This document shows, in pieces, positions 8,676 through 22,450 of a DNA stretch of 64,000 nt; the first letter of the stretch is position 1, and the number at the start of each line of letters is the position of its first letter. The DNA is taken from positions 736,001 through 800,000 of the forward strand of contig JANVYR010000001.1 in NCBI GenBank assembly GCA_030059665.1, written 5' to 3'. The stretch is from Candidatus Calditenuis fumarioli. GTDB taxonomy: Archaea; Thermoproteota; Nitrososphaeria_A; Caldarchaeales; Calditenuaceae. Below the pieces are notes generated by a model. It searched no databases and was not told the DNA's origin. It worked only from the letters and a program-made list of their open reading frames with translations. Position numbers and translations under genes: made by a program.

Positions 8676-9617
8676 TCAGCCCTTGAACTCCAGTCCCGTC
8701 AGCTCGATGTACCTGTCAAGCGCCGAGAGGTGCTCCTCCGAGGTCCTCCTCTCCCACCTCACGAAGATCGCTGAGACGAGGTTCCTCATCAGCTCCGCGC
8801 CGTCAGGGGTGTTGAGGTCAAGGAAGGCCTCGATCAAGGCCTCCCTCAGCTTCGGGTCGAGGTTTTTCGAGACGACCAGCGCGTGGGACGGCAGCGGCCC
8901 CTGCTTCTCGATCACCCGCGTCGAGCTCATCGCCCTCTCGTAGAGCTCCTTCGAGACGTCACCGGCCATCACCGTCACCTCCACCCTGCCTGCCATCAGC
9001 GCCTCGTAGCACTGGGCGTATCCGCCGGCGAAGTAGACCTCCGAGAAGAAGTCCTTGGGGTCGACCGCGCCGCCGTCCTTCCTGCTCAGGAGACCGAGCT
9101 CGACCATCCTCGCCATCGGCGCCAGGTACCCGGACGAAGAGATGGGGCTCGGGAAGCAGGCGCTCTTCCCCCTCAGGTCCTCGAGTTTGGTATACGGAGA
9201 GTCTGGTCTCACTATCCAGTAGGAGTAGTAGAAGGTGCCCTCGACGTACCTGTCGTCGACGTAGACCCTCCTGACCTCCGCGAGCACCACCTGCGCTCCG
9301 GCCGTTTTGACCGCGATCGCCGCCGGCCACGAGCCCATCAGCGCCGCCTGCGCGGTTCCGAAACGGAGGGCCTCCACCACCGCAGCGTAGCTCGTCGGCA
9401 CGTAGACCTCCACCTCCACCCCGAGCCTTGAGGAGAGGTAACCCTTGAGCCGCTCGGCCCTCTCGAGGATCTGGGCTGGGTTCTGCGTCGGCTGCACTGC
9501 CAGCACCAGCTTCTCTTTCCTCGCCGGTTGCGCCGTGAAGGGGAGGACAGCGACCAGCAGGACAGCTGCGACCACCGCGACTGCCGCAACGAGCAGCCAC
9601 CGGGTGCGCGGCGACAT
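8676..9617 (-). CDS. phnD: Phosphate/phosphite/phosphonate ABC substrate-binding protein
   Basis: N-terminal anchor, PTSYAAVVEALR, YYSYWIVR, SSSGYLAP. Confidence 0.88.
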   Translation of the reverse strand: MSPRTRWLLVAAVAVVAAVLLVAVLPFTAQPARKEKLVLAVQPTQNPAQILERAERLKGYLSSRLGVEVEVYVPTSYAAVVEALRFGTAQAALMGSWPAAIAVKTAGAQVVLAEVRRVYVDDRYVEGTFYYSYWIVRPDSPYTKLEDLRGKSACFPSPISSSGYLAPMARMVELGLLSRKDGGAVDPKDFFSEVYFAGGYAQCYEALMAGRVEVTVMAGDVSKELYERAMSSTRVIEKQGPLPSHALVVSKNLDPKLREALIEAFLDLNTPDGAELMRNLVSAIFVRWERRTSEEHLSALDRYIELTGLEFKG

Positions 9618-9631
9618 CTCGCTCGTCTGTC

Positions 9632-9664
9632 ATAACGGCGTTATTATCAACTTGACGTCGTTGA
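9632..9664. promoter_or_regulatory. Two adjacent inverted repeats overlapping the phnD TATA region
   Basis: ATAAC-GGC-GTTAT (9632-9644) and TCAAC-N8-GTTGA (9647-9664), 15-47 nt upstream of the phnD ATG. Confidence 0.4.
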
Positions 9665-9798
9665 AACTTTCCTTTTACCCTGTAAAAATCGGAGTGAGGC
9701 TACATGGGGTTCCGGCGCATCGCCGACGCGTGTAGTGACCGGGGACCGGGTGGCAATGGTGATAAGGTGGGTCGGTCGATTCGGTGCTGATCGCCGGC

Positions 9799-9831
9799 GC
9801 CCCGGTAGCTCAGCCTGGTCAGAGCACCGGC
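9799..9831 (+). pseudogene. Isolated intron-less 5' half of a tRNA (matches tRNA-Thr GGU); probable att-like island border
   Basis: GCCCCGG-TA-GCTC-AGCCTGGTCA-GAGC-A-CCGGC gives the acceptor 5' strand, a perfect D arm and the anticodon 5' strand, then similarity stops. The first 15 nt and last 7 nt are identical to the tRNA at 21916. Confidence 0.85.
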
Positions 9832-9957
9832 AGAGTCTCAATGATGCGTATGGACTCGAGGGGATTCAGGATCGCCTTTTCCGTTTCGTGAGACTTTACT
9901 TAGCATAACTGCGTGAACCGTGACTCATGTAGTTCGTTCCTCTCCAGAGGCCTATAT

Positions 9958-10412
9958 TTATGAGGCCGGTTCCGCCCTCAATTCCAGCTCATTAATGTTG
10001 CTTTTTATGACTTGAGGGGCGTTCAAGAACATATTTAAGGTAAACTCCTCACCCCCTCTCCCGAGGCCACGCCTCTATCTCCTCCTCTGTTGGTAACAAT
10101 TCTGGTGGGATCTTGATGCCTGATGCACTCTCATACTTGCTGAGGTCGGCCAAAAAATGGATAACCACCTGCTACGCTGATCGGCTCCTTGTGAACCTTG
10201 CGGAAACCCCACTCCTCAAGGGCCCTTACTTCCCTCTCCCTCCCTTCCTCGGCCTTGGGATTCAAGAACGTATCAAGGATGAACTGCTTATGATATGCCA
10301 TACCCCTTATACCCCTCTACTTCATCAACTGCTCAAGGATGGGTATCGCCTGCATCTCTCCTGTCTGAACCAAAACCTCCTTCAGGAGCTTGATGTGCTC
10401 GGAATCAATCGA
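9958..10412 (-). pseudogene. Fragmented ORF remnants of unknown function
   Basis: Minus-strand frames give protein-like pieces (MAYHKQFILDTFLNPKAEEGREREVRALEEWGFRKV; HFLADLSKYESASGIKIPPELLPTEEEIEAWPRER) broken by stops and frameshifts. Confidence 0.35.
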
Positions 10413-10913
10413 TCGTGATGTTAGCTGTCGTCAGGACTCGGTTCCTGAAGGAACGGTCGAGGTGTTTGCCAGGTTGGTGGGGAAGGAAGGCAAAACCTCC
10501 TCGTGGTGGAGGACTAGGCTGGGGACGAGTACAGACTGGCGAACCGCCTAGTGTATGGAGACGTTAGTGTCTTCTCCCTTAACCCAAGTCGTCTTCAAGA
10601 CGCCTCTCCAGATCAACTTACGGCTACGCATCTACCTAGAGGTTCCAGATAGGTGGGACACGTGGCCTCGGCGCTGGTGAGGCCGCAAGGAAACTCCATT
10701 TACAGATGACTTTGTAGTCTACTCCTACATTATAAAGGAACATGGAAGCTGATAAAAGGTCATCGACCTTAAAACCTCATCAGACATTTTGAATTACTTC
10801 TTAGATTGTATGCGGGAACTAACCATATGATGAACTAGTCGTTTTGAGACTGATTTTAACTGGTTTTAACTGGGTTTGATGTCAGAGTTTGAGGTCGACT
10901 CTCACTTATCGTA

Positions 10914-11882
10914 TTATTCCGCGTCTGACATCATAGATTCTTTAAATTTATTCATACATTCTTCGCAACAGAAATAATATGTCATTCCTCCATGAAGCAG
11001 CACATAAGGGGTGTCTTTGGTCACGAACATCCCACAAACGGGATCACGATAATTTTCTACATTTGTATCGTAATGCCACTTTTTATGTGTTAGCTCATTG
11101 TATCGGGTTTCACCAGGAATATTCCTTATAAGTGATATGACCTCTGCTACTATGCTAACTGCAATTTCCTCCAAATTTGATGCATTTATATCTAGTCCAG
11201 CGGGACATTTGACGATGTTGAGGGTCTCAGGACTGTACCCCTCCCTCTCCAAATATTGTCTTAGAGCTTCCCATCTCCTTCTGCTAGCCACCAATAATAT
11301 ATTTCTAAACCCGTTCTTCAGGGCGAACCGTATCGCGTCCTCGTCATAGCGATTCATAGTTGCGACAATAATGATATCGCCAAGCCTCTTATATTCGCCC
11401 TGTATCTTATTCATTACTTGGTCATATGTTATTTTTGAAACTTTATATCCAATAAAATTGAAAAGCTGCTCTAGTTTGCTGGTCAGCTCGTTCTCACCCG
11501 CTATCGTCACCACTGCAGGCTTAATCGGTTCTAAGAGGAAGATCGCTCCGCCCGAACTAATACAGTAATTGACATGAACTGATGTATCAAGCTGAGGCTT
11601 CTCGGTGCCCGCTATAATAGACCTTGAGCGTTGATTGGGGCCAAAAAACACCAGCCTGCTACGCCCCGATTCTAAGCATTTTACGGCCTCGCTAGCTAGC
11701 CATTCGACGATGCAAGGCCCTCCCAGCCAGCCCTCAATCTCCCCGGTGGGGTGCACTATGGCCTTTGTGCCGGGCTCTACGCTTATGAAGGGCGAGGTTT
11801 CGAGCACGGTCACGAGCACGAAACTCCGTCCTTCCTTGATGAGTTCGGTCGCCCTCTGTAAGATTTGCTCCATCAAAGTCAT
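10914..11882 (-). CDS. coxF: XdhC/CoxF-family molybdo-hydroxylase maturation factor with C-terminal YHS (TRASH) domain
   Basis: GWLGGPCI, VKCPAGLDINASNLEEIAVSIVAEVI (XdhC) and C-terminal DPVCGMFV...YYFCCEECMNKF (YHS). ATG overlaps the coxL stop. Confidence 0.82.
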   Translation of the reverse strand: MTLMEQILQRATELIKEGRSFVLVTVLETSPFISVEPGTKAIVHPTGEIEGWLGGPCIVEWLASEAVKCLESGRSRLVFFGPNQRSRSIIAGTEKPQLDTSVHVNYCISSGGAIFLLEPIKPAVVTIAGENELTSKLEQLFNFIGYKVSKITYDQVMNKIQGEYKRLGDIIIVATMNRYDEDAIRFALKNGFRNILLVASRRRWEALRQYLEREGYSPETLNIVKCPAGLDINASNLEEIAVSIVAEVISLIRNIPGETRYNELTHKKWHYDTNVENYRDPVCGMFVTKDTPYVLLHGGMTYYFCCEECMNKFKESMMSDAE

Positions 11883-14221
11883 AGCTCTGAAACCACGCCC
11901 TTTTCCTTCAAGATGCTGTAGACGCGCCACGGATATAGAGGCATCCCTATCTTGGTCACGCCTAAGTGGCTCAACGCGTCTACTACTGCGTTCTCAAAGG
12001 CTGCTGGTGATCCGACAGTTGGTGATTCGGCCACACCCTTTGCTCCCAACGGATGGTGGGGCGATGGTGTCACAGTGCGGTACGTCTCCCACCGAGGCGT
12101 CTCCACTGCCGTAGGTATAAGGTAGTCCATGAAGGTGTTGCCATAGATGTTTCCCTGCTCATCGTACCTTATCTCTTCTAGGAAGGCAGTCCCGAAGCCC
12201 ATGGTCAGAGCACCATGAATTTGTCCCTCCACGATCATGGGATTGATGACGTTGCCGCAGTCGTCCACAGCCACGAACCGTCTGACTTTCACCTCTCCTG
12301 TACCTCTGTCTATATCTACGACGCAGATATAAGCGCCAAATGGGAACGTCATATTTGGAGGATCATAATAGGTTACCGCTTCCAGACCCGGCTCTAGACC
12401 AGGCGGAGGATTGGTGTAGGCCGCGAAAGCCACGTCCTGTATCGTCACGGATTTCTCGGGAGCCTCCTTCACGTAGAAGCGGCCCTTCTCGAAGACTATG
12501 TCCTCCTCCCTTACCTCGAGGAGGTGGGCCGCTATCTTTTTGGCCTTAGCAATAATTTTATCAGCAGTCACCGCCGCTGCAGCCCCAGCAGTTGGTGTGC
12601 TCCTGCTAGCGTAAGTTCCTAGACCGTAGGGTGCTGTGTCGGTATCACCCTCCTCTACTGTAATGTCCTCCTCGGGTATACCTAATTTCTCTGCTAGAAT
12701 CTGCGCGAACGTCGTCTCGTGACCCTGACCCTGTGACTTGGTCCCGAACCGAGCTATGACCTTGCCAGTCGGGTGAATCCTCACCTCGCAGCTTTCGAAC
12801 ATTTTTATACCGAGAATGTCGAAGATCTTCGAGGGGCCAGCCCCTACAATCTCGACGAATGTGCTTATGCCTATTCCCATCAATTCTCCCCGCTTTCTCT
12901 TCTCCTCTTGCTCTTTTCTAAGCTGCTCATAGTCAATTTTCTCCATTGCAAGCCGCAGAGCTCTCTCGTAGTCTCCGCTGTCATATTCCCATCCGAATAC
13001 ACTGGTATATGGGAATTCCTCCTTCTTGATGAAATTCTTCAGCCTCAGCTCCGCTGGATCCATACCCAATTTGTGGGCCAAAATGTCAATCATCCGCTCG
13101 ATGACGTAGGCTGCTTCCGTTACCCTGAACGAGCACCTATACGCTATGCCACCTGGTGGTTTGTTCGTATGGACACCTGTGACCTCTACATAACCAGCCT
13201 TCCACTTGTAACAACCCGAGACTATGGTGAACAGCCCGAACGGGAACTTGGATGGTGTGGCGTCGCCAAAGAATGCTCCGTGATCGCTTAGCACGCTCAT
13301 CCTTAATGCTAGAAGGGTTCCGTCCTTTTTCGCAGCGACCTCAGCAGTGATGTAAGCGTCCCTTGCAAAGGCAGTGCTGCTTAGGTTCTCGGTTCGCGTC
13401 TCGATCCACTTCACAGGCCTCTCAGTCATGATGGAGGCAAAGGCTGCAACAACGTAACCAGGGTATACGTAGACTTTGCCGCCGAACCCTCCTCCAATGT
13501 CTGGAGCTATTATTCTAATTTTATGTTCAGGGATCTTCGTGAACAGTGAGGCAACTGTCCTGACAGCATGAGGTGCCTGGGTTGTCATCCAAAGCGTGAG
13601 TTTCCCTGTAGGCGGATCGTAATGAGCCACGCAACCACATGTTTCCATATGAGCGACGTGTATCCTATGATAGTAGAAGTTCTCTTTCACAATCACGTCT
13701 GCTTCTTGGAAATACCTATCTGTGAGGTCCTTATCTCCAGCAGACCACGTAAATATCTTGTTAGTTCCCTTGTCCGGCCTGACGAGTGGAGCATCTGGCT
13801 CCAAGGCCCTTTGCGGTGTCATAACAGGTTCTAGAGGCTCGTATTCAACCTCGACTAGTTCGGCAGCATCCTCTGCTATATAGCGGTCTTCGGCGACTAC
13901 CGCAGCAACCTCTTGATATGGATAATACACTTTGTCTAATGCTAGAACCGGTTGGCGATCATTCATTAAGGTAGGCATCATGCTTAGTCCTGCGGCCTGC
14001 AAGTCCTTTCCAGTTATTACCGCAACAACTCCGGGTACCTTTAATGCCCTCTCGACGTCAATCCTTTTGATCTTAGCATGTGCGTATGGACTCCTGATCA
14101 GCTTGACGTGGAGCATGTTGGGGAGCTTGATGTCGTCCACATATGTCCCCTTACCTCTGATGAAACGCGCGTCCTCCTTCCTCTTTAATGGGTGGCCCAT
14201 CCCATGGATTGTGGCTGTCAT
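11879..14221 (-). CDS. coxL: Aerobic carbon monoxide dehydrogenase large subunit, form I
   Basis: Form I active-site motif AYRCSFR; [30 protein letters not shown]. Confidence 0.95.
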
Positions 14222-14745
14222 CTCCTCACCACCAATTCGAGGGAACGAACTCCCATCCGATTGAGCTTTTCGGCGGCGTACTGTATAGCTTCGACGATCT
14301 TGACGTAGCCTGTGCACCTGCAGAGATTCCCTGCGATCATCTGCCTTATCTCGTCTTCGGTAGGCATTGGATTTTGATGTAGTAGCCAAGCAGATTGCAT
14401 CAACAGTCCAGGCGTACAGTACCCACACTGAAGACCGTGTTTCTCCCAAAAGCCTTCTTGAACCGGATGTAGCCTACCATCCCTTTCAAGCCCTTCGACT
14501 GTGTATATCTCTGATCCATCGAGCTGCACCGCGAAGAGGGTACAACTCTTGACGGTTACGAAATCCTCGGACCACGGGAATCTCACTAGGATCGTGCATG
14601 CGCCACAGTTAGATGTGTCGCAGCCTATGTGCGTGCCTGTCAAGTTCAGCAGCTCCCTGATCATGTGTACCGCCAATAGCCGCGACTCGACGTCTAGTTC
14701 CTTCTTTACTCCGTTTACAACCACACTTATCTTATGTCTTCCCAT
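14218..14745 (-). CDS. coxS: Aerobic CO dehydrogenase small (2Fe-2S) subunit
   Basis: [27 protein letters not shown]. Confidence 0.95.
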
Positions 14746-14752
14746 CTTTACA

Positions 14753-15622
14753 TCACCTAACCAATCTCTCGTAGACCGTTTTGATGCCTCTGAGGAGGAG
14801 CACTCTCATTACGTCTCTCTTGTACCAGTCCGGGCCCCTTAAGTCGGAGACGGGATTGACCTTCATTTTGTCAAACGCATTCTTAGCCGAGGTCAGCAAG
14901 TTCTCTAAGCCCCTTTTATCGATTATCGATTCCTCTATTTCCTCCGCAGGCAGAGGTGTAGGTCCCGCGTTTGTGAAAGCCACTCCTGCACGCGTGACCC
15001 TATTATCATCATCAACGGTCAGTTGGACCGCCACCGCCGCTATCGCGTAATCGCCCGTGCGCCTCTCAAACTTCAGGTATGTCCCTCCCGAGTATCCGTC
15101 CCAATGTGGGACGTTCACCTCCACGAGCACCTCGTCTGGTCGCAATTCTGTTGTAAAGGGTCCCTTGTAGAAGTCCTTTGCCGGAATCTCCCGTGTGCCC
15201 CTCTTGCTCTTCACAACATATTTTGATTTCAGACTGATGAAAACTGCCGGTAAATCATTGCCTGGATCGCCGTGGGCTGCGTTACCTCCGACGGTGCCCA
15301 TGTTTCTCACTTGAGGGTCTGCGACCTGTCTAGAGGCCGCGCGCAGAATGTCATATTGGGATGGGAACTTAGTTCGTTCCAATTGCGCAATTCTTACCAA
15401 TGCACCGATCTTTAATGAACCGTCTTCCATGTTCATGTAATTTAGGCCTTTGACCCGATTGATGTCAACGACCAGTGCAGGCCGGGCAATCCTCAGCTTC
15501 ATTAAGGGTATCAAGCTCTGTCCCCCGGCCAGTATCTTGGCCTCTTCGCCCCTCTCATCTAGTAACTTTAGGACGTCATCTAAAGAGTTTGCAGGAATGT
15601 ATTCGAATTGTGGTGGGTACAT
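14753..15622 (-). CDS. coxM: Aerobic CO dehydrogenase medium (FAD) subunit
   Basis: [28 protein letters not shown]. Confidence 0.95.
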
Positions 15623-15699
15623 TTCGACACCTTACCCCAATACCTTCTATTAAACCTATCCTTACACATGCCGCGCGATTTGATTACAGTTGGCTGATC

Positions 15700-16000
15700 A
15701 CCTATGAGGGCTTGAAACTCGTCCTCGACGTGCACATGGACCGCAAGTTCCTCGACCATCCCATTGGACTCCAGCTCCCACTAGTCCTCGGCCGTGGGGA
15801 ACCCGACGAGGGCGAAGACTAGCTCCGTCCTGCCGTCCTCCGGAATGATGTGGACGCCAGCGCACGTGGTGACGAGCCCTGATTGAGGAGAGCGTGGGGT
15901 TGGACCACGCTGGTAGGCCGTGGTCGCCGCCGATGACCAGCAGGTCGCACTCGCGGTCCACGAGTTCCGCGATGGTCGTCCGGTTCTTCGCCACGCGTTA
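15700..16000 (-). pseudogene. Frameshifted ORF remnant
   Basis: Overlapping frames MAKNRTTIAELVDRECDLLVIGGDHGLP and GVHIIPEDGRTELVFALVGFPTAED look like pieces of one broken gene. Confidence 0.3.
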
Positions 16001-16339
16001 CCATCATCTACCTCCGTGGAACGATCGTTAATCAGGGGAATCATTAGCGTGATCTTCGTGTCCGCCGAGGCGGCGAAGCTCCTAGGCCTAATCGAGTTTT
16101 CGGCGCGAAGTCGCAGGCAATGGAGGCAACCTAGACTCTCCAGCGGTGCGGATCTAGCCGAGCATGATCCGCGTCGCCCTTGAACTAACTAGCCATGAGT
16201 TCTACGAGCCGGGTTGCCACCTCCTCGGAAAGTCCGAATGACAGCCAGAGGTCACAGAAGAGAAAAGTGCTGTGCCAGAAACCAAGAGAAGGCGTTCCAG
16301 ACTGGCTTCCGTTATTTCCAAGATGTCTGAGGTTGTCGT

Positions 16340-16699
16340 TCACCTCCTGAGAGTCTTACCGTGAACGATCTTGGCCATCAAAGTAATGACTCCCGCGACG
16401 AGGGCCATCACGAAATCTGTTGTGAACAGGACCTCAGAAGGCGCTCTGATGAGTACCTCATTGTTGCCGACCCTAAGGACGTAATTTAGCGCGAACGCTC
16501 CGGCTGTCGGGACGCTCAGCCCCATAGGCCTGACGACCTGAGTCCCTGCAATTATTCCCACGAGGAAGACCAGCGGTACCGTGAGCCCCCTCAGGCTCAT
16601 CAACGACCCGGACCACTTCTTCCCGGCAAAAATCGACCCGATTAGGGTCGTCGAGGCCGCGAGCAGCAGGAAAAGGAAGAGAAGGGCCCGCGGCTTCAT
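16340..16699 (-). CDS. Small membrane protein (about three TM segments), unknown function
   Basis: MKPRALLFLFLLLAAS...; 119 aa with hydrophobic segments; lies downstream of the ATPase gene in the same orientation. Confidence 0.6.
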   Translation of the reverse strand: MKPRALLFLFLLLAASTTLIGSIFAGKKWSGSLMSLRGLTVPLVFLVGIIAGTQVVRPMGLSVPTAGAFALNYVLRVGNNEVLIRAPSEVLFTTDFVMALVAGVITLMAKIVHGKTLRR

Positions 16700-16709
16700 G
16701 GAAGCCCAC

Positions 16710-17270
16710 CTCACGTGACCTGCCGGCCGACCTCCGCGGCGCGCTTCGCCTCGAACGGCACGAAGGTCAGAACGGCCCTCGCCCACAAGGGGTCCCCGAT
16801 CTCGGCGAACCTCTGTCCCCTCCCTCTCCGCCTTCAGCACGGCCTTCCGGACCGTTTTCACGGAGAGGTCCACGTTTCAACCGCCCACTCCTGCGCCCCT
16901 CTGTCCATCCCAGGACCTCGAGCATCCAGCTCCTCAGGTCCTCCTCGCTCTCTATCTGCTCGGTGGAGAGCTGGCCCAGTATATGCCCGCCGAGCGTCAG
17001 CCCCAGGGTCAGACCCTTCCCCCACGAGGGCCGTAGCGTTGACCTGCAAAGGCAGATCCGACTATCCCTCCATCACTGTCCTGTCCGCGGCCTCGGAAAG
17101 GGAGACCCCTGTCTTGACGTATCCCAAATCAGATCAAAGCAACTCTGATGCTATCGACTGGACGGTCCTGCGACCGTCTGTCTTGATCCAGTAACAAAGA
17201 CCATGTTGCAGACGTCTGCATTCACTTTCCTCTCATCGCCCTGAGATGGGGAGTGAGGCTATCACATTTA
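16710..17270 (-). pseudogene. Degenerate gene between the ATPase and the small membrane protein
   Basis: Protein-like fragments in different frames (GHILGQLSTEQIESEEDLRSWMLEVLGW; FAEIGDPLWARAVLTFVPFEAKRAAEVGRQVT*). Confidence 0.35.
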
Positions 17271-17284
17271 ATCCTCGTGGCACT

Positions 17285-19201
17285 TCATGGTTGAAGCCCG
17301 CATCGTTGCAGACGACCCTCATCTACACGCTCGGTCCCCGCGCGCCAGACCACCTTTACCGCCCTTCCTGTCCTAGGCGTCGTAACGACGGCCTCTTCCC
17401 ATCCTAGCGTAGCCAATGCATCCCTCTGCGCGTCGTTTAGCATCATCCTCTCCGAGACGACCTCCAGATCGTCGGCACCCGTCAGCCTCTTGCAGATCAC
17501 CGTCCCAGGAAGGGAGACGGCGTCGTCGGATATCCTCGACGGCCTCTGGTCTACTATCCAGACCGACTCTCCGAACTTCCTCACCTCCCTGAGCATCTGC
17601 TCTACGATAGTAGTCCTCCCGGTCTCGGTCCTGGGGAGCAGGTTGTGCGCCTCCTCGCAGACGACGACGTGGATCTTGCTTCCCCTGCCCGACCTCCTCC
17701 TCTGCTCGAAGATCGCCTTGAGAACCAGCCAAGAGACGACGTTCCTCTCCCGCTCAGAGCTGAGGGACGAAAGGTCTATCACCGCGTCCTCCGTAAGCAG
17801 CTCGCCGATGCCGATTGCACCTTCCCCTCCTTCTATGAACCTCGATGCACTTCCGTCCGCAAGCTCGGAGATCCTAGAATAAAGCGAGAAGAGCGCGTCC
17901 CTTGCCCTCCTCGAGTCCAGGAATCCCCTGATCAGTTCTGAACCGCTTCCCTCGAGGTACCGGACGAAGAGCGATGGCCTGAAGTCTTTGAACTCGGCCC
18001 TGAACCTCCTGTATGCTGTCCTGAAGACGGCCGACTGGAGCGGGCCGAACTCCTCGGGCCAGGCCATGGAGAATATGTCCGAAAGGAACACCGACTCCTC
18101 TTCAGGATCTGACTCAGCGGTAAGGAGCTTTAGACCCTCCACATCGCCTCCGGGCCCCACGACCACGTCGGCATTCTCCCTGTACTCTCCGTGCCTGTCC
18201 AGAACGAGGTACCTGATCCCGAGCGACCTGAGCCTCGTCAACAGGGCCTTGACCAGGGAGGTCTTGCCCGATCCGGGGGAGCCGAAGACCGCCAGGGAGT
18301 GAGGGAGGTGCTCGATGGGCACTGAGACCGGAACCCTTCCACCTGGTCCGTGAGAGAACCCTATCAGGAGACCTCTGCCTCCGGCCTCGCCCCTCATCGG
18401 ACGGTGGAAGACCTCTCTTCTGACCACGGCATAGCTCAGGGATGGCGAGAGAACAGGACCCGTCCTGAGGAGCACAGCTAGCTCTTTGGTGGTCAGGTAA
18501 TGCTCCCTGGGCCTTCTGGACCTCTCCAGCTCCGCCATCAGATAGGATCGGGCCAGAGGCTTCAGAACCCTCACGGCGGGGCCGTCGTGAGCTAGGACCT
18601 CGACAGATACGGCCCAGCCCTCCTCGAGCAGCTCGCTGGCCCTCCAGAGCTCCCTCCTCATCCTCTCCATCCTAGGGAGAAGCTCGGGCCTGACCTCCTC
18701 CCTTCCCTCGGACCTCCCTCCTTCCCTCTCGGTCACGATGGACCTGATGGAAGCCTCTGCTTTGCTGAGGTCCTCGGAGACCTCCCTGAGATGAGCCGAG
18801 ATCCTGAACCTGTCCAGGAATCCCCTGGCCGGCCTGGCGGAGATCACCAGGTCGTACTCGAGTCCGGCGGAGGACGTGGTCCTGAGGAAACCCTCTACGT
18901 CAGCCGAATGCTGCCACCCGTCGAGGAGGCGCTTAATTCCGAGTGACGTGCGGTCAGCGTCACCGAGCTGGAACGTCCCTCCAGGGCTGCATGCTCCGGT
19001 CATGGACCGCAGCAGCCTCACCACATCCCCCGGTTCCATGCCCTCTATACCGATCAGCAGGGAGAAGTTCGCCTTCCTGACCGAGTAGACCGTGACGAGC
19101 TTCCTGTTCATGGCCCAGCACGCCCTAAGTATCCTAGACCTCTCCTCGGTCGAGAGCTCGGGCAAAGAGACCGAGACGAGCTCAGGGACCGAGATATGCA
19201 A
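17285..19201 (-). CDS. HerA/VirB4/FtsK-like (DUF87-type) P-loop ATPase with long N-terminal extension
   Basis: Walker A GSPGSGKT, LDRHGEY, Walker B VCEEAHN, MLREVRKFG, VDQRPS. Confidence 0.85.
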   Translation of the reverse strand: MHISVPELVSVSLPELSTEERSRILRACWAMNRKLVTVYSVRKANFSLLIGIEGMEPGDVVRLLRSMTGACSPGGTFQLGDADRTSLGIKRLLDGWQHSADVEGFLRTTSSAGLEYDLVISARPARGFLDRFRISAHLREVSEDLSKAEASIRSIVTEREGGRSEGREEVRPELLPRMERMRRELWRASELLEEGWAVSVEVLAHDGPAVRVLKPLARSYLMAELERSRRPREHYLTTKELAVLLRTGPVLSPSLSYAVVRREVFHRPMRGEAGGRGLLIGFSHGPGGRVPVSVPIEHLPHSLAVFGSPGSGKTSLVKALLTRLRSLGIRYLVLDRHGEYRENADVVVGPGGDVEGLKLLTAESDPEEESVFLSDIFSMAWPEEFGPLQSAVFRTAYRRFRAEFKDFRPSLFVRYLEGSGSELIRGFLDSRRARDALFSLYSRISELADGSASRFIEGGEGAIGIGELLTEDAVIDLSSLSSERERNVVSWLVLKAIFEQRRRSGRGSKIHVVVCEEAHNLLPRTETGRTTIVEQMLREVRKFGESVWIVDQRPSRISDDAVSLPGTVICKRLTGADDLEVVSERMMLNDAQRDALATLGWEEAVVTTPRTGRAVKVVWRAGTERVDEGRLQRCGLQP

Positions 19202-19817
19202 CCAATCTCGCCCTCCTGCCGTTCAGGCTGACCAGCTCCTCGGCGACCAGGCCCTCCTCCTCGAGCTCCCTCACCCACTTCCTGACCGTCGGCAGCGAGA
19301 GGCCTGCAACCCTAGCCAGCTCGGACTTCGTCACGCTTCCCCTCTCCCTCAGGACCCGGAGTATCCTGTCCCTGGGGCCCTCGATGGCGTCAGTCCTCGA
19401 ATGGACGTAGTTCAGGCCTCCGTCGGTCCAGAGATCCTTTCCCCCTGATGGCGTTACCGCCTCTTCCCGGCCCATCAGTCCTGAGATGGCGCCTGCGGCC
19501 ATACGCGCTAAAGCGAGGGGGCCGATGCCGGCGAACCTCCGGAGGAGCGCCAGGGCGGTAGCCGCTATAGCAGCAGCGCCCACCATGGGGTTCTCCACGG
19601 AGAGGACCGCGGCCGAGAGGGTCGCCGTGACCAGGAGACCGGTCTTAAGGACCCTCAGACTCCCGGTCAGGAGAGCTGAGAGCAGGGTGAGATAGAGTCC
19701 CATCGAGAGGACCAGGGATGAGGTCCCCATCCACTCGGTGATGCCGTAGACCGCGATGGCCGGGATCGCCGGCGCGAGCAGCTTGACCGTTGCCGAGCCG
19801 GTGCCCATCCAGGTCAA
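19182..19817 (-). CDS. Membrane protein with C-terminal winged HTH
   Basis: About four hydrophobic helices, then RDRILRVLRERGSVTKSELARVAGLSLPTVRKWVRELEEEGLV; overlaps the ATPase start by 20 nt. Confidence 0.72.
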   Translation of the reverse strand: MTWMGTGSATVKLLAPAIPAIAVYGITEWMGTSSLVLSMGLYLTLLSALLTGSLRVLKTGLLVTATLSAAVLSVENPMVGAAAIAATALALLRRFAGIGPLALARMAAGAISGLMGREEAVTPSGGKDLWTDGGLNYVHSRTDAIEGPRDRILRVLRERGSVTKSELARVAGLSLPTVRKWVRELEEEGLVAEELVSLNGRRARLVAYLGP

Positions 19818-19979
19818 CGGAGGACGTACCCGCTTATCCGAATGCGACCCGAAACGGAATTTCTGGGCTTCTCCAGGCGGGGGAGGGGCTGGACCCCGGA
19901 CCGGGTTGATGGGAAAGGAAGGATGATAACTCGGTCTTAGCTGGGTCAGACCGGAGACGGGAGCGTCGGTGAGCGGAAC

Positions 19980-20693
19980 TTGTGTGACGATCCATACGAG
20001 GAGTACGGGTTGGACGCTCTGGGCGGGCTCCTCGTCCTGCTGATACTGCTCCTTGCGATATTGGTCCTCATCGATGCCATAGTGAAGGAGATCACAAAGC
20101 TCCTCATGAGCGTGAAGGCGATGCTGGACGCTCTGGTCGCGACGCTCATCTCGGCCTTTATGGTGGTGGTTATCGGGGCGCTTAACGCATTCGTCTATTT
20201 ACTCGTCGCCGTTGCAACCCTGATACTCGGCGTTCAGCTGTACAAGCGCTCCGACAAAATAATCGGGGCGCTCTCGTCCTTAGCACGCTGGATAGCGGGC
20301 CATATACATTACCGGATGATCGAGCCCCTCCTCGCGATCAGGGAGCTCAGGAGTACGCTGGATAGGATGTCCGGTGACACTTCCTGTCTGATGGTTCTCA
20401 TGGAGCTCTTAAATGGTCCGGCTGGAAGCATCAGCGAGCTCGGTGAAAGGGTCGGTAAAAGGGCCCTCAGCACCGTTCACACCCACATACGGCACCTGGT
20501 GGATTGTGGTCTGGTGGAGAGGGTCGAAGAGAGGATAACGGGCAGGAGGGGCTCTTCGGCCGAGGTCAGGGTGGGGCTGGCGAGGAGGTTCGACAGATGG
20601 ACCGCGAGGCTCTACCTCAGATGGAGGATAGGAAGGCTGCTGAAAGCCGGTGAAAGGGTTGCTGAAAGGCAAGGTTTGAGTAGCTTTCACTGA
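19980..20693 (+). CDS. Membrane-anchored ArsR-like winged-HTH protein
   Basis: Hydrophobic N-terminal half; C-terminal LMELLNGPAGSISELGERVGKRALSTVHTHIRHLVDCGLVER. Confidence 0.68.
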   Translation: MCDDPYEEYGLDALGGLLVLLILLLAILVLIDAIVKEITKLLMSVKAMLDALVATLISAFMVVVIGALNAFVYLLVAVATLILGVQLYKRSDKIIGALSSLARWIAGHIHYRMIEPLLAIRELRSTLDRMSGDTSCLMVLMELLNGPAGSISELGERVGKRALSTVHTHIRHLVDCGLVERVEERITGRRGSSAEVRVGLARRFDRWTARLYLRWRIGRLLKAGERVAERQGLSSFH

Positions 20694-20911
20694 CAGCTGA
20701 TTAGCGAGGAAGGCTGTACGGCCGCCAACGGTCGGATGGGATATAGTGGTACCTTGGTGAGAGAATGAGTGATGGGAAGTTTCAGGACCCCGGGGTTGAC
20801 CCGGAAGCGGTCGCGGCCCCGGGCCCGGGGGATAAGGCCGCGCCCCCTGATGGCGTTTTTGGGCGAAGCGCCCCCATCGGGGAATCTCTCGGGAGGGGAG
20901 GGGTTGAGAGA

Positions 20912-21694
20912 TTGTCCAGAAAGTTCTACGCCGACGTCCACTGGAGGAAGGACCACGTGGTCGTAGCAGACGGGATCGTTAAGAGGTTCAGGAAGCTCGG
21001 CGACATACCCGCACAGGCCGGAGACGAGCTGTACGTGGATGCGATGCTACCGAGCAGATTTCAGGAGTTCGAGGAGTTGCTGAACAGAGGTGTCCGGGTA
21101 TTCTACCTGAGGAGGACCGACGTCTTGGAGAAGTACAGGGAGAAGAAGAGCGATGAGGACGACGCCAGGGCGCTGATGAGAATACCACAACACCTCTTCA
21201 GGGAGCTCATAGGAAAGGAGCTGGAGGTCAGAAGGCTTCTGCACAAATACACGACGACGAAATCGCACCTGGAACTTGTAAAGCAACTGTCACGCGAGGC
21301 GGATGATGAGGAGACCAGGGCACACTACAGACATCTCATCAATCACCTGAGGAGGCGGAAATACAAACTGGCTAAAGAGATAGACGCGTTGGCTAGAAAC
21401 TTCCTTCCGGTCCAACAGATAGCATGGAAACTTGGAATCATTTCAAACAATTGCCTCTTCGGCAGGGTAGCTCTGGTTCAGCTGCTGTTGTACGTGGACT
21501 TCAGCTTAGGGCTGAGAAAGATATTGACCTATACCGGTAACTACTATCCTAACGACGGAAGGTACAGCAGAACTCTAAAGGATGCAACCGAATCGCTGAC
21601 AATCAGCGTCAAGAGAAGGCAGAAGATCAAGGGAAAAGAGGTGAGAGAGGTCCTGAAAACCATAAAGAACGTGCTGAAGGCGATGAAGAGGTGA
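20912..21694 (+). CDS. Compact IS110-family-like transposase (about 260 aa)
   Basis: RuvC-like acidic residues FYADVH, LYVDA and KSDEDDARAL; coiled-coil middle; shortened C-terminal domain. TTG start at 20912 follows GGAGG elements. Confidence 0.65.
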   Translation: MSRKFYADVHWRKDHVVVADGIVKRFRKLGDIPAQAGDELYVDAMLPSRFQEFEELLNRGVRVFYLRRTDVLEKYREKKSDEDDARALMRIPQHLFRELIGKELEVRRLLHKYTTTKSHLELVKQLSREADDEETRAHYRHLINHLRRRKYKLAKEIDALARNFLPVQQIAWKLGIISNNCLFGRVALVQLLLYVDFSLGLRKILTYTGNYYPNDGRYSRTLKDATESLTISVKRRQKIKGKEVREVLKTIKNVLKAMKR

Positions 21695-21698
21695 GAAC

Positions 21699-21811
21699 GG
21701 GGGAAAGAGCCGGATGGGGACCTGGGCAATAGAGCACCGAATGCAGACCTACCGAAAGGGGGGATGAAGCAATTACCAAGCCAATGCTCTAGGTTCTCAT
21801 TCCGGCTCCCC
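21699..21811 (+). ncRNA. Candidate structured ncRNA downstream of the IS110-like transposase
   Basis: GAGCCGGA (21707-14)/TCCGGCTC (21801-08), TGGGGACCT/AGGTTCTCA (two G-U pairs) and AGAGCA/TGCTCT form a long interrupted stem enclosing a GAAA hairpin. Confidence 0.5.
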
Positions 21812-21837
21812 TAGACGGCATACGGCTGGCGATCTAA

Positions 21838-21856
21838 CCCCTCCCCTCTCTTTTTC
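21838..21856 (+). terminator. Pyrimidine/oligo-T tract, likely archaeal terminator
   Basis: CCCCTCCCCTCTCTTTTTC follows the structured region. Confidence 0.4.
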
Positions 21857-21884
21857 AATGCCCTCTTCTCACGTTAATTACAGG

Positions 21885-21891
21885 TTTAAAT
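21885..21891 (+). promoter_or_regulatory. TATA box of tRNA-Thr
   Basis: TTTAAAT about 25-30 nt upstream of the tRNA 5' end. Confidence 0.55.
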
Positions 21892-21915
21892 GTAGAGTTC
21901 ACGGAATTCCGCTTA

Positions 21916-22013
21916 GCCCCGGTAGCTCAGGTGGCGGAGAATTGGGAGAACCCCCAATCTGAATCACCGGCTTGGTAAGCCGGGGGTCGCGGGTTCAAGT
22001 CCCGCCCGGGGCT
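21916..22013 (+). tRNA. tRNA-Thr(GGU) with a 25-nt intron at position 24/25 (21940-21964); CCA not encoded
   Basis: GCCCCGG/CCGGGGC acceptor stem, CCGGC-TT-GGT-AA-GCCGG anticodon arm, GCGGG-TTCAAGT-CCCGC T arm. Removing 21940-21964 restores the GCTC/GAGC D stem. Confidence 0.88.
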
Positions 22014-22450
22014 CACCTGGCTTAATTGGGACGTTCTCAGACGGAATTGGGCGAGCCGTCCGGGAGGACTCGACAGAAACCCAGGCGTTAGGAGATGCCC
22101 AAACAGCACACGGCCTAACGTTGGAATACGCTCAAACGGTCCCGATGTGGACTGGGCCTTCGTGGAGATGGTGATGCTCCAGAACTATAGCTGCAGGTGG
22201 GCAAGGGAGTGCCTGCGCCTCATGAGGCGCTACGCTCATTCCCTGTGCTCAGGCGATGCCTCATCCCTCTTGACGCTCGGTCCCCACGAATGGCTCGAGG
22301 CGATGAAGGCGCGCGGCATGCTCTCGAGGGTCTAGGGCTCCGAGTGAGTGGAGAGCGATCAGAGAGGCTTATGGGCTCAAGTGGAGCCTAGGCGAATGCG
22401 CATCACCTCCGATGCTCTCTGGAGGAGCATATTCGAGCCTTCTGTCCGAT
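21979..22450 (+). pseudogene. SSV-type split tyrosine integrase C-fragment, inactivated
   Basis: Frame is open from the anticodon loop through the tRNA 3' half (GGRGFKSRPG) into VDWAF...YSCRWARECLRLMRRYAHSLCSGDASSLL...AMKARGMLSRV*. After a frameshift it reads EWRAIREAYGLKWS. These resemble archaeal integrase N-proximal motifs as I recall them; the catalytic domain is absent. Confidence 0.7.

What the first reader, a model, noticed from the sequence alone, without database searches (positions are those of the whole stretch)
20694..21860. Compact archaeal IS110-like recombinase flanked by structured non-coding ends: candidate bridge/seek RNA system
Seen: a ~260-aa ORF with a DDDD-like RuvC tetrad (ADVH, YVDA, KSDEDDA) and a very short C-terminal domain with no obvious 'SG' serine loop. 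The 3' region (21699-21811) folds into a ~23-bp interrupted stem with G-U pairs, internal loops and a GAAA hairpin, followed by a T-tract. The 5' region also has nested hairpins (CCCTGATGG/CCATCGGGG around GGGCG-AAG-CGCCC at 20845-20882; GCGGCC/GGCCGC). Established: IS110/IS1111 elements encode guide RNAs in their non-coding ends that specify target and donor DNA. Inference: this is a miniature, probably thermostable RNA-guided recombinase, or a lineage that uses a different second nucleophile.
Basis: partly seen in the sequence, partly recalled or inferred. Interest (0 to 1): 0.72.

Follow-up and report, generated by a model that had tools for sequence, protein, structure and literature searches.

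The report
RNA-guided element rebuilding a tRNA gene
The small gene and the folded RNA behind it are the targeting module of a mobile element that sits in the threonine-tRNA gene of a hot-spring archaeon: the RNA carries two 9-base guides that spell the uninterrupted tRNA gene, and the element repairs the gene with its own promoter, front half and a new intron, here dragging along a 12-kb island of cargo genes.

Summary
A 259-aa ORF (TTG 20915 to 21694) has an IS110-like acidic motif set and no serine loop, and a conserved hairpin RNA follows it (21684-21846).

That loop holds two 9-nt spacers, each framed by GCAAU...AAUGC. Spacer A (AGAGCACCG) equals the top strand, and spacer B (UACCAAGCC) pairs with the top strand, of tRNA-Thr(GGU) positions 21-37. 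That is exactly the site where the element sits.

Eleven further copies in nine genomes show the same cognate match to their own tRNA. Two copies of a second class match non-tRNA flanks.

The element supplies a TATA box, a new 5' exon (21916-21939) and a 25-nt intron at position 24/25, which splits the guide's target. The old 5' fragment lies 12.1 kb upstream (9799-9831), and the DNA in between is foreign cargo.

Sugahara et al. (2012) described such insertions in Caldiarchaeum subterraneum without recognising the RNA or the fold. Other agents of this scan read the two paralogous copies of this genome the same way. The chemistry (nuclease-driven homing or true transposition) is open.

The parts
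9799..9831 (+). Displaced original 5' part of tRNA-Thr(GGU) (positions 1-31), the left border of the insertion; it contains the full spacer-A match AGAGCACCG.
   Evidence: Sequence; pattern search finds only two copies of the tRNA 5' end in the window, at 9802 and 21919; in congener G002 the same upstream flank abuts an uninterrupted tRNA-Thr.
9832..21964 (+). The whole 12,133-bp insertion between the two tRNA pieces. It holds cargo (XdhC, a molybdopterin dehydrogenase operon, a HerA-like ATPase, two membrane wHTH proteins) plus the targeting module at its right end.
   Evidence: Junctions; Pfam; cargo not found in five congeners apart from weak paralogue matches; GC 47-54% over 10-16 kb against 63% in the flank.
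20642..21816 (+). Unit repeated within this genome. It is 74% identical to the copy on contig 2 (L003, in tRNA-Lys); from 20921 on it is 88% identical to the copy in tRNA-Asn (L002).
20694..20914 (+). 5' leader with nested hairpins (20845-20882). It is non-coding by its substitution pattern and more conserved than synonymous sites. Its role is unknown and it is not shared by other copies.
20915..21694 (+). Gene for the 259-aa RuvC - coiled coil - Nop-like protein (TTG start; an upstream in-frame ATG at 20765 is probably not used).
21684..21846 (+). Guide RNA gene: basal stem, GCAAU-spacer A-AAUGC, apical hairpin, GCAAU-spacer B-AAUGC, basal stem, tail.
   Evidence: Covariance model R1, 102.8 bits; pair counts.
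21731..21739 (+). Spacer A, AGAGCACCG. It is identical to the tRNA-Thr top strand at positions 21-29, so it pairs with the bottom DNA strand.
   Evidence: perfect uninterrupted target in congener G003.
21742..21772 (+). Apical hairpin. In the copies of this genome it carries an extra stem with a kink-turn-like GA/AG motif and a GAAA loop.
   Evidence: the kink-turn is read from the sequence only.
21774..21782 (+). Spacer B, UACCAAGCC. It is the reverse complement of GGCTTGGTA, tRNA positions 29-37 including anticodon GGT; the match runs on to 10 nt.
21851..21855 (+). T-tract after a conserved C-rich tail, the likely end of the RNA.
   Evidence: Sequence; the tail is conserved across genomes.
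21885..21890 (+). TTTAAA box 26 nt before the tRNA start: an element-borne promoter for the rebuilt tRNA (inferred).
   Evidence: Sequence; the same layout is seen in L002, L003 and L057.
21916..21939 (+). Element-borne replacement 5' exon of tRNA-Thr (positions 1-24). Its D loop differs from the displaced original.
21940..21964 (+). 25-nt intron at tRNA position 24/25, the right terminus of the element. It interrupts the spacer-A match.
   Evidence: the same position as in Sugahara et al. 2012.
21965..22014 (+). Resident 3' part of tRNA-Thr(GGU). It begins with CACCGGC, which is duplicated at 9825-9831, and it contains the spacer-B half-site 21969-21978.

Best explanation
This is the targeting module of an RNA-guided mobile element that uses tRNA genes as landing sites.

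Shown:
- The protein has an active-looking RuvC domain, a coiled coil and a Nop-type RNA-binding domain.
- The RNA behind it is a conserved pseudo-symmetric hairpin with two 9-nt spacers that read opposite strands of one 17-nt DNA site, tRNA-Thr(GGU) positions 21-37.
- The insertion lies exactly in that site.
- The element brings a promoter, a new 5' exon and an intron at 24/25, so the tRNA gene is rebuilt while the guide's target is split.
- Other copies carry other spacers that match their own tRNA or flank.

Inferred:
- A protein dimer loaded with one guide RNA binds and cuts the uninterrupted tRNA gene with a 3' stagger, as TasR does.
- The break is filled with the element. The route is either recombination with the tRNA-derived arms that bracket it (homing, which would carry any cargo lying between the arms) or direct joining.
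- The intron then gives immunity against re-cutting.

In this window the module sits at the right end of a 12.1-kb foreign island, so it acts, or acted, as the integration module of a cargo-bearing island.

For: Guide: a conserved structure with variable spacers.

Cognate matches: 9-11 nt in 10 of 12 copies against their own downstream tRNA. The cognate mean is 8.9 nt and the non-cognate mean 5.9 nt. The only 4 of 132 non-cognate matches of 9 nt or more are between copies that target the same tRNA. Spacer A matches the displaced 5' fragments.

Empty sites: G003 carries the perfect 18-nt target; G002 has the same upstream flank next to an uninterrupted tRNA-Thr; for the paralogue, G002 holds an intact tRNA-Asn.

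Geometry: the right junction at 24|25 is where the TasR rule (a cut next to the nucleotide opposite the 5th spacer base) puts the bottom-strand cut.

Sole gene: minimal elements of 1.29-1.6 kb encode nothing else.

Beyond tRNAs: class-2 copies match non-tRNA flanks.

Recent mobility: filled and empty alleles coexist in a natural C. subterraneum population (PMC3293823).
Against: - No biochemical or RNA-seq evidence is on hand, and no RNA run holds the locus.
- Nothing shows how spacers are reprogrammed together with the 5' exon.
- The left junction is not at a fixed distance: the apparent duplication is 3 to about 11 nt across copies. This fits recombination or heteroduplex repair better than a simple cut-and-ligate event.
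- A subgroup, including the C. subterraneum protein, lacks the third acidic residue (KSA/KTA instead of KSD).
- The 12-kb island could have grown by later insertions to the left of the module rather than having moved as one piece.
Confidence: 0.75

Rival explanations
1. It is a true IS110-type RNA-guided recombinase (a bridge-RNA system) that joins a circular donor to the target by strand exchange, with a nucleophile other than the canonical serine or with RuvC-only (DDE-like) chemistry.
For: - Full-length structural match to IS621 and ISCro4.
- Weak PF01548 hits in 5 of 30 members.
- Guide halves match the left and right target flanks, as LTG and RTG do.
- Class-2 copies sit at unrelated sites, which homology-dependent homing does not easily explain.
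- A short identical segment at both junctions resembles a core.
Against: - No Transposase_20 hit, no conserved Ser/Thr/Tyr, and an all-helical C-terminal half without the serine sheet.
- Only one guide loop per element and no donor-binding loop.
- Left ends are not conserved, and nothing in the RNA is seen to match them.
- The overlap is 7 nt, not a 2-nt core.
- No circle junction in metagenome contigs, which is a weak negative.
Confidence: 0.2
2. The RuvC-Nop/RNA pair is not what inserts the element. Another integrase (pNOB8- or SSV-type, as Sugahara et al. proposed) integrated a plasmid at the tRNA, and the pair is a passenger that eliminates empty or competing alleles, or blocks rival elements.
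For: - tRNA-gene integration with a duplicated tRNA piece is the classic integrase signature.
- The window copy lies in a 12-kb island with plasmid-like genes such as a HerA/VirB4-like ATPase.
Against: - Minimal copies of 1.3 kb hold no other gene.
- The insertion point coincides with the centre of the guide's target in every parsed copy.
- No integrase domain was found among the ten ORFs of the surrounding region that I scanned (seven of them inside the island).
Confidence: 0.05
3. The RNA is a box C/D-like guide for 2'-O-methylation, or another modification, of the tRNA transcript. The Nop-domain protein would be a Nop5-like scaffold.
For: - Spacer B is complementary to the tRNA anticodon loop.
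- The apical hairpin has a kink-turn-like motif.
Against: - Spacer A has the same sense as the tRNA, so it can pair only with the antisense DNA strand.
- The RuvC acidic residues are conserved, unlike in Nop5.
- The family is multi-copy and sits at contig ends like an insertion sequence.
- Class-2 guides match non-tRNA DNA flanks.
Confidence: 0.02

Closest known systems
TIGR-Tas systems, TasR with stem-loop tigRNA units (Faure et al. 2025, PMC12045711; PDB 9mty)
   Same: - One RNA with two short spacers that read opposite DNA strands.
- Identical conserved motifs frame both spacers, which implies a symmetric dimer.
- The right junction lies where the TasR cleavage rule predicts a cut.
   Different: - A single guide unit per locus instead of an array.
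- The unit sits on a multi-copy mobile element and targets the host's own tRNA gene rather than foreign DNA.
- The frame motifs are GCAAU/AAUGC, not CCA/UG.
- At the sequence level only the Nop domain is detectably related, and to TasH.
- Confined to one archaeal order in the sample searched.
IS110/IS1111 bridge-RNA (seekRNA) recombinases (IS621, ISCro4; PDB 8wt6, 9t56)
   Same: - Mobile element with one protein and a guide RNA in a non-coding end.
- The two strands of the guide loop match the left and right target flanks.
   Different: - No Tnp domain with a catalytic serine.
- No donor-binding loop.
- A 7-nt overlap instead of a 2-nt core.
- No Pfam hit for the window protein.
- The element rebuilds the interrupted gene.
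[quoted passage not shown] 2012, PMC3293823)
   Same: The same family: its ORF 'b' of 813 bp is my hit P0005, 43% identical. It has the same target tRNA, the same intron position 24/25, the same displaced 5' fragment, and several copies per genome.
   Different: That paper saw neither the guide RNA nor the RuvC-Nop fold, and it attributed integration to a pNOB8-type plasmid. The window copy is in another family of the order and carries 10.9 kb of cargo.
Homing introns and inteins with homing endonucleases; TnpB/IscB omega-RNA nucleases of IS200/IS605
   Same: A selfish element whose nuclease recognises the uninterrupted allele, and whose own insertion destroys the recognition site while host gene function is kept.
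   Different: Recognition here is by a dual-spacer RNA. The large insert is not itself spliced out; only a 25-30-nt terminal piece serves as the intron, and a new promoter and 5' exon are supplied.

Membership tests
IS110 family (bridge-RNA recombinases) | N-terminal DEDD RuvC-like domain (PF01548) | tested here: inconclusive
   The fold matches IS621 and ISCro4, and the acidic residues are conserved. The window protein has no Pfam hit at E<=1, and only 5 of 30 relatives give weak hits, the best at 0.0098.
IS110 family (bridge-RNA recombinases) | C-terminal Tnp domain (PF02371) with a catalytic serine on a beta-sheet | tested here: not met
   No PF02371 hit. No conserved Ser/Thr/Tyr in the C-terminal half of 30 members. 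The model is all-helical after residue 100.
IS110 family (bridge-RNA recombinases) | Bridge RNA with two loops, one target-binding and one donor-binding | tested here: not met
   In this window, and in the fetched loci other than L008, there is one sense-strand hairpin hit with one internal loop per element. L008 has a second, ORF-less guide-like hairpin upstream. No segment matching the element ends was seen.
IS110 family (bridge-RNA recombinases) | Insertion at a 2-nt core without a target duplication | tested here: not met
   A 7-nt identical segment is present at both junctions in the window (CACCGGC) and in L002 (CGCCCGG).
TIGR-Tas (TasR) | Nop-type RNA-binding domain | tested here: met
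   [not shown]
TIGR-Tas (TasR) | N-terminal RuvC nuclease fused through a coiled coil | tested here: met
   [not shown]
TIGR-Tas (TasR) | Guide with two spacers reading opposite strands, each framed by the same pair of motifs | tested here: met
   GCAAU-N9-AAUGC occurs twice. Spacer A is sense and spacer B antisense to one 17-nt site. The motifs differ from TasR's CCA/UG.
TIGR-Tas (TasR) | Tandem array of many guide units next to the tas gene | tested here: not met
   One unit per element; three model hits in the whole genome, one per copy.
TIGR-Tas (TasR) | RNA-guided double-strand DNA cleavage with a 3' stagger | not testable with these tools
   The only evidence is the position of the junctions relative to the spacers.
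Box C/D sRNP (Nop5) | Inactive N-terminal domain that recruits fibrillarin, with guides complementary to RNA | tested here: not met
   [not shown]
Archaeal BHB-spliced tRNA intron | Intron flanked by a bulge-helix-bulge motif and removed by EndA | tested here: inconclusive
   The exons join to a normal cloverleaf and the intron forms a hairpin. A strict BHB was not demonstrated and no RNA data are on hand.

The most novel reading that the evidence does not exclude
A single 259-aa protein with one about 120-nt RNA is a complete, reprogrammable RNA-guided insertion system. It moves DNA of at least 12 kb into chosen 17-nt sites. It is the agent that creates non-canonical tRNA introns, orphan tRNA fragments and perhaps split tRNA genes in archaea. 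It is also a living link between TIGR-Tas nucleases, IS110 recombinases and the Nop5 box C/D machinery.
Probability: 0.3. Interest if true: 0.92.

Novelty: new variant of a known kind. Interest (0 to 1): 0.8.

Why it matters
- It gives a concrete molecular agent for a 2012 population-genomic model of how archaeal tRNA genes gain introns and shed fragments.
- It shows that the RuvC-Nop lineage (TIGR-Tas, IS110, Nop5) includes serine-less, single-guide mobile elements in archaea. That is the domain where the box C/D machinery arose, and Vaysset et al. proposed that its IS110-like ancestor clade may be extinct.
- It is a very small, presumably thermostable, PAM-free dual-spacer DNA-targeting system.
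- This window's copy, at the edge of a 12-kb foreign island, suggests that cargo of that size can travel with the module.

Tried and rejected
- Pfam, NCBIfam and PHROGs on the protein gave nothing usable. Rfam over the region found only the tRNA.
- A parse-free search for contiguous split guide matches in the flanks found nothing. This is expected, because the intron splits the site in the integrated state.
- No RNA holder was listed among public runs. Contigs of four hot-spring metagenomes laid on 9600-22300 gave no clean empty site or excision product. The joints across the island are other organisms' tRNA genes with short sides. One joint, 20645 to 21680, could be an ORF-less derivative or an alignment artefact.
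- Exact-pattern scans of metagenome contigs for right-end to left-end circle junctions, of the tRNA-Asn copy and of the window island, found nothing.
The order is inferred from the C. subterraneum hit.
- The left ends of six copies show no shared terminal motif by eye. I made no computational search of the guide RNA or the leader for sequences matching the element termini.
- I rejected the 5' leader as a second guide. It is missing from L002, BLAST finds it only in two other loci of this genome and not in the fetched loci of other genomes, and it shows no variable loop.

Full report
**What is in the window**

The frame 20765-21694 (+) is open for 309 aa. The part shared with relatives begins near residue 50.

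Paralogues L003 and L002 have ATG where the window has TTG at 20915. Between the window and L003, the stretch 20765-20914 changes equally at all three codon positions (13/12/15; dN/dS 0.6). The core changes mostly at third positions (48/40/96; dN/dS 0.19).

I therefore read the gene as 20915-21694, 259 aa, and 20694-20914 as a non-coding leader. Pfam, NCBIfam and PHROGs give nothing for the protein.

**The protein family**

An exhaustive HMMER search of 1.84 billion representatives finds only 75 clusters. Nearly all are 70-330 aa, the longest is 388 aa, and the full-length ones are about 230-330 aa. A word-index search finds four proteins, one of them an uncharacterised protein of Candidatus Caldiarchaeum subterraneum (43% identity).

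In an alignment of 30 full-length members, K79 and D84 (KSDxxDA) are invariant. D8 (yvDV), D20, D43 (YvD) and R76 are nearly so. Nothing in the C-terminal half is conserved that could act as a nucleophile.

AlphaFold2 on this alignment gives pLDDT 96.1. The model has a five-stranded RuvC-like domain (residues 1-98), two long helices (101-161) and a helical C-terminal domain with no strands.

Structure and profile comparisons:
- Foldseek ranks ISCro4 (9t56), TasR (9mty) and IS621 (8wt6, 8wt9) together, at E about 1e-5 and TM about 0.6.
- A profile of the family hits only TasH among all PDB sequences, at E 1.2e-5 over the Nop domain.
- Five of 30 members give sub-threshold hits to DEDD_Tnp_IS110, and none hits Transposase_20.

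The serine domain that defines IS110 recombinases is missing, and the C-terminal half is a Tas-type Nop domain.

**A repeated, lineage-restricted element**

The genome (1.57 Mb, 3 contigs) holds three full copies and a 5' fragment. A more distant copy and a further weak partial match are seen only at protein level.

Among 61 relatives, 25 genomes have matches, with up to 43 or more per genome and many at contig ends. In an even sample of 301 genomes of the phylum, matches occur in 22 of 40 other genomes of three families of one order, and in none of about 260 elsewhere.

**The RNA**

Directly after the stop codon every copy has a long hairpin. A covariance model built from eight copies finds it behind nearly all fetched copies, once per element except in L008, and exactly three times in the window's genome. 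Over 16 homologues from nine genomes, 95.5% of cells pair, against 34-53% when the partners are slid by 1-3 columns. Three pairs show double changes.

In the window the layout is:
- a basal stem;
- GCAAU, 9 nt, AAUGC;
- an apical hairpin;
- GCAAU, 9 nt, AAUGC;
- the basal stem again;
- a C-rich tail and a T-tract at 21851-21855.

The two 9-nt stretches vary between copies while their frames do not. This is the logic of a tigRNA stem-loop unit, in which the same box motifs frame both spacers because a symmetric dimer binds them (Faure et al.). The motif sequences themselves differ.

**The spacers spell the tRNA gene in which the element sits**

Spacer A (21731-21739, AGAGCACCG) is the top strand of tRNA-Thr(GGU) positions 21-29. 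Spacer B (21774-21782, UACCAAGCC) is the reverse complement of positions 29-37, which include the anticodon.

The tRNA gene starts 60 nt after the T-tract. Its 3' part contains GGCTTGGTAA at 21969-21978. A congener, G003, has an uninterrupted tRNA-Thr(GGU) with the whole 18-nt string AGAGCACCGGCTTGGTAA.

The same holds for the paralogues:
- tRNA-Asn, 10 nt;
- tRNA-Lys, 11 nt.

It also holds for copies in other genomes:
- Met, Thr, Arg(CCU), Lys, Leu(CAG) and Leu(CAA), 9-10 nt each;
- Arg(GCG), 7 nt.

Spacer A recurs in the displaced 5' fragments.

In a 12 x 12 table the cognate longest match averages 8.9 nt and the non-cognate 5.9 nt. The four non-cognate values of 9 or more are all pairs that target the same tRNA.

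Two copies of a second RNA class in the C. subterraneum-like genome match non-tRNA flanks in the same way: spacer A at the left border and the complement of spacer B to the right.

Because spacer A has the sense of the tRNA, the target must be double-stranded DNA, not the tRNA transcript.

**Anatomy of the insertion**

- The original tRNA 5' part (positions 1-31) lies at 9799-9831 and is followed by unrelated DNA.
- At the right end the element supplies a TTTAAA box (21885-21890), a new 5' exon (21916-21939, with a D loop different from the original) and a 25-nt hairpin intron (21940-21964).
- The resident gene resumes at C25.
- CACCGGC (positions 25-31) is present at both junctions.

In the tRNA-Asn copy the layout is the same, with CGCCCGG. 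Congener G002 holds the intact, intron-less tRNA-Asn as the empty site.

Element lengths are 1,287-1,625 bp elsewhere and 12,133 bp here.

The right junction, 24|25, is where the rule reported for TasR places the bottom-strand nick, that is, a cut next to the nucleotide opposite the fifth spacer base. The same paper also words the rule with the other side of that nucleotide, so the agreement is within one position.

The left junction is less regular. Identity with the tRNA ends after position 27 in C. subterraneum, and after about 30-33 (35 in L003) in the other copies. L003 and L012 show mismatches between the two copies of the overlap. This suggests exchange over a heterologous overlap, or recombination, rather than a clean fill-in duplication.

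The intron splits the spacer-A match, and no uninterrupted target remains in the window. This is the self-immunity logic of homing elements.

**What is special about this copy**

In G002 the same upstream genes (phosphonate transporter) lie about 160 nt from the matching tRNA 3' part, that is, directly next to an uninterrupted tRNA-Thr(GGU). The 12.1 kb is therefore an insertion.

The interior encodes:
- XdhC;
- a three-subunit molybdopterin dehydrogenase;
- a HerA/VirB4-like ATPase;
- two membrane-tethered wHTH proteins.

Five congeners show only weak paralogue matches to this interior. Part of it has 47-54% GC, against 63% outside.

Only two tRNA 5' ends and one guide RNA occur in the island, so it is not a simple stack of several elements. 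Either cargo travels between the two tRNA-derived arms, or DNA was added to the left of the module later. I cannot tell which.

**The 5' leader**

The three copies of this genome that have the leader keep them, with four compensated pairs. The leader is about 26% diverged between the window and L003, where synonymous sites have dS 0.97, so it is under some constraint.

It is absent from the tRNA-Asn copy, which has an unrelated 170-nt leader. BLAST finds it only in L003 and L004 of this genome. It also has no variable loop. I do not count it as part of the guide system.

**Prior knowledge**

Sugahara et al. 2012 (PMC3293823) described a 1,868-bp insertion at tRNA-Thr(GGU) in a natural C. subterraneum population. 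They reported filled, empty and rearranged alleles, the 24/25 intron, the orphan 5' fragment and an 813-bp ORF 'b' with six to seven copies. They proposed integration of a pNOB8-type plasmid. ORF 'b' belongs to the family studied here.

I found no paper that links it to IS110, to TIGR-Tas or to a guide RNA.

Other agents of this scan reached the same reading on the tRNA-Asn and tRNA-Lys copies of this genome. I saw their notes only after my own analysis of those loci.

**Mechanism: what is shown and what is not**

Shown from sequence and models: the fold, the conserved acidic residues, the conserved dual-spacer RNA, the spacer-to-site correspondence, the rebuilt tRNA, and the empty sites in relatives.

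Inferred:
- the protein binds this RNA as a dimer;
- it cuts the uninterrupted site;
- the intron is spliced.

Open: how the DNA is joined. Three observations favour nuclease-triggered copying through the tRNA arms (homing):
- the left ends are not conserved;
- there is no donor loop;
- the cargo size varies.

The class-2 copies at unrelated sites favour a homology-independent insertion. How the spacers and the borne 5' exon are retargeted together is unexplained.

Noticed in passing
window 9950-10410: Short repeats of 60-190 nt, 80-90% identical, recur at about 15 other places on all three contigs of the genome. They look like miniature repeat elements just inside the left border of the island.
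   Followed up: no
L008:1158-1267 (+): A second, ORF-less guide-like hairpin (33.5 bits with model R1) lies about 1 kb upstream of the complete element in genome G038. Its 3' loop differs by one base from that of the main guide. It may be a solo guide or the remnant of an earlier insertion.
   Followed up: no
window 21742-21772: In the three copies of this genome the apical hairpin of the guide RNA is extended by a stem with tandem G.A/A.G pairs and a 3-nt bulge (UGC-AGA-CC ... GG-GAU-GA-A-GCA). This is the shape of a kink-turn that L7Ae could bind. Other genomes have a plain 10-13-nt hairpin here.
   Followed up: partly
L028, L031 (genome G024, the C. subterraneum-like complete genome): A second class of the element, with guide frames UAUGAC-N8-UGACG and a conserved upstream region of about 600 nt (region 'a' of Sugahara et al.), has spacers that match non-tRNA flanks. 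The family is therefore not restricted to tRNA genes.
   Followed up: partly
window 20645 joined to 21680 in contigs of runs X2 and X12: Two metagenome contigs join the start of the repeated unit directly to the start of the guide RNA, skipping leader and ORF (1,034 nt). This could be an ORF-less derivative or an alignment artefact, since the sides are only 28 nt.
   Followed up: no
L080:107-214 (G003) and L079:238-328 (G002): The congeners' tRNA-Thr(GGU) genes carry a canonical-position intron but none at 24/25. G003 keeps a perfect target for the window's guide. G002 differs at two anticodon-loop bases, so it would be a poorer target.
   Followed up: partly
G000:C1:325048-325797 (-) and G000:C2:391733-392260 (-): A more distant fourth protein copy (open frame 289 aa, about 35% identity) and a further weak partial match (E 6e-11 within a 405-aa open frame) exist in the window's genome. 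Model R1 finds no guide RNA next to them.
   Followed up: no
L004 (G000:C2:56408-56706): An isolated copy of the last 130 nt of the upstream wHTH gene plus the 5' leader (75% identical to window 20564-20864) has no ORF or guide RNA behind it. It may be a recombination remnant like the scattered 'a' regions of C. subterraneum.
   Followed up: no
window 16340-20693: A HerA/VirB4-like ATPase (17285-19201, minus strand) overlaps a membrane wHTH gene and faces a second membrane wHTH gene (19980-20693) that ends right at the repeated unit. These are plasmid-like genes inside the island.
   Followed up: partly
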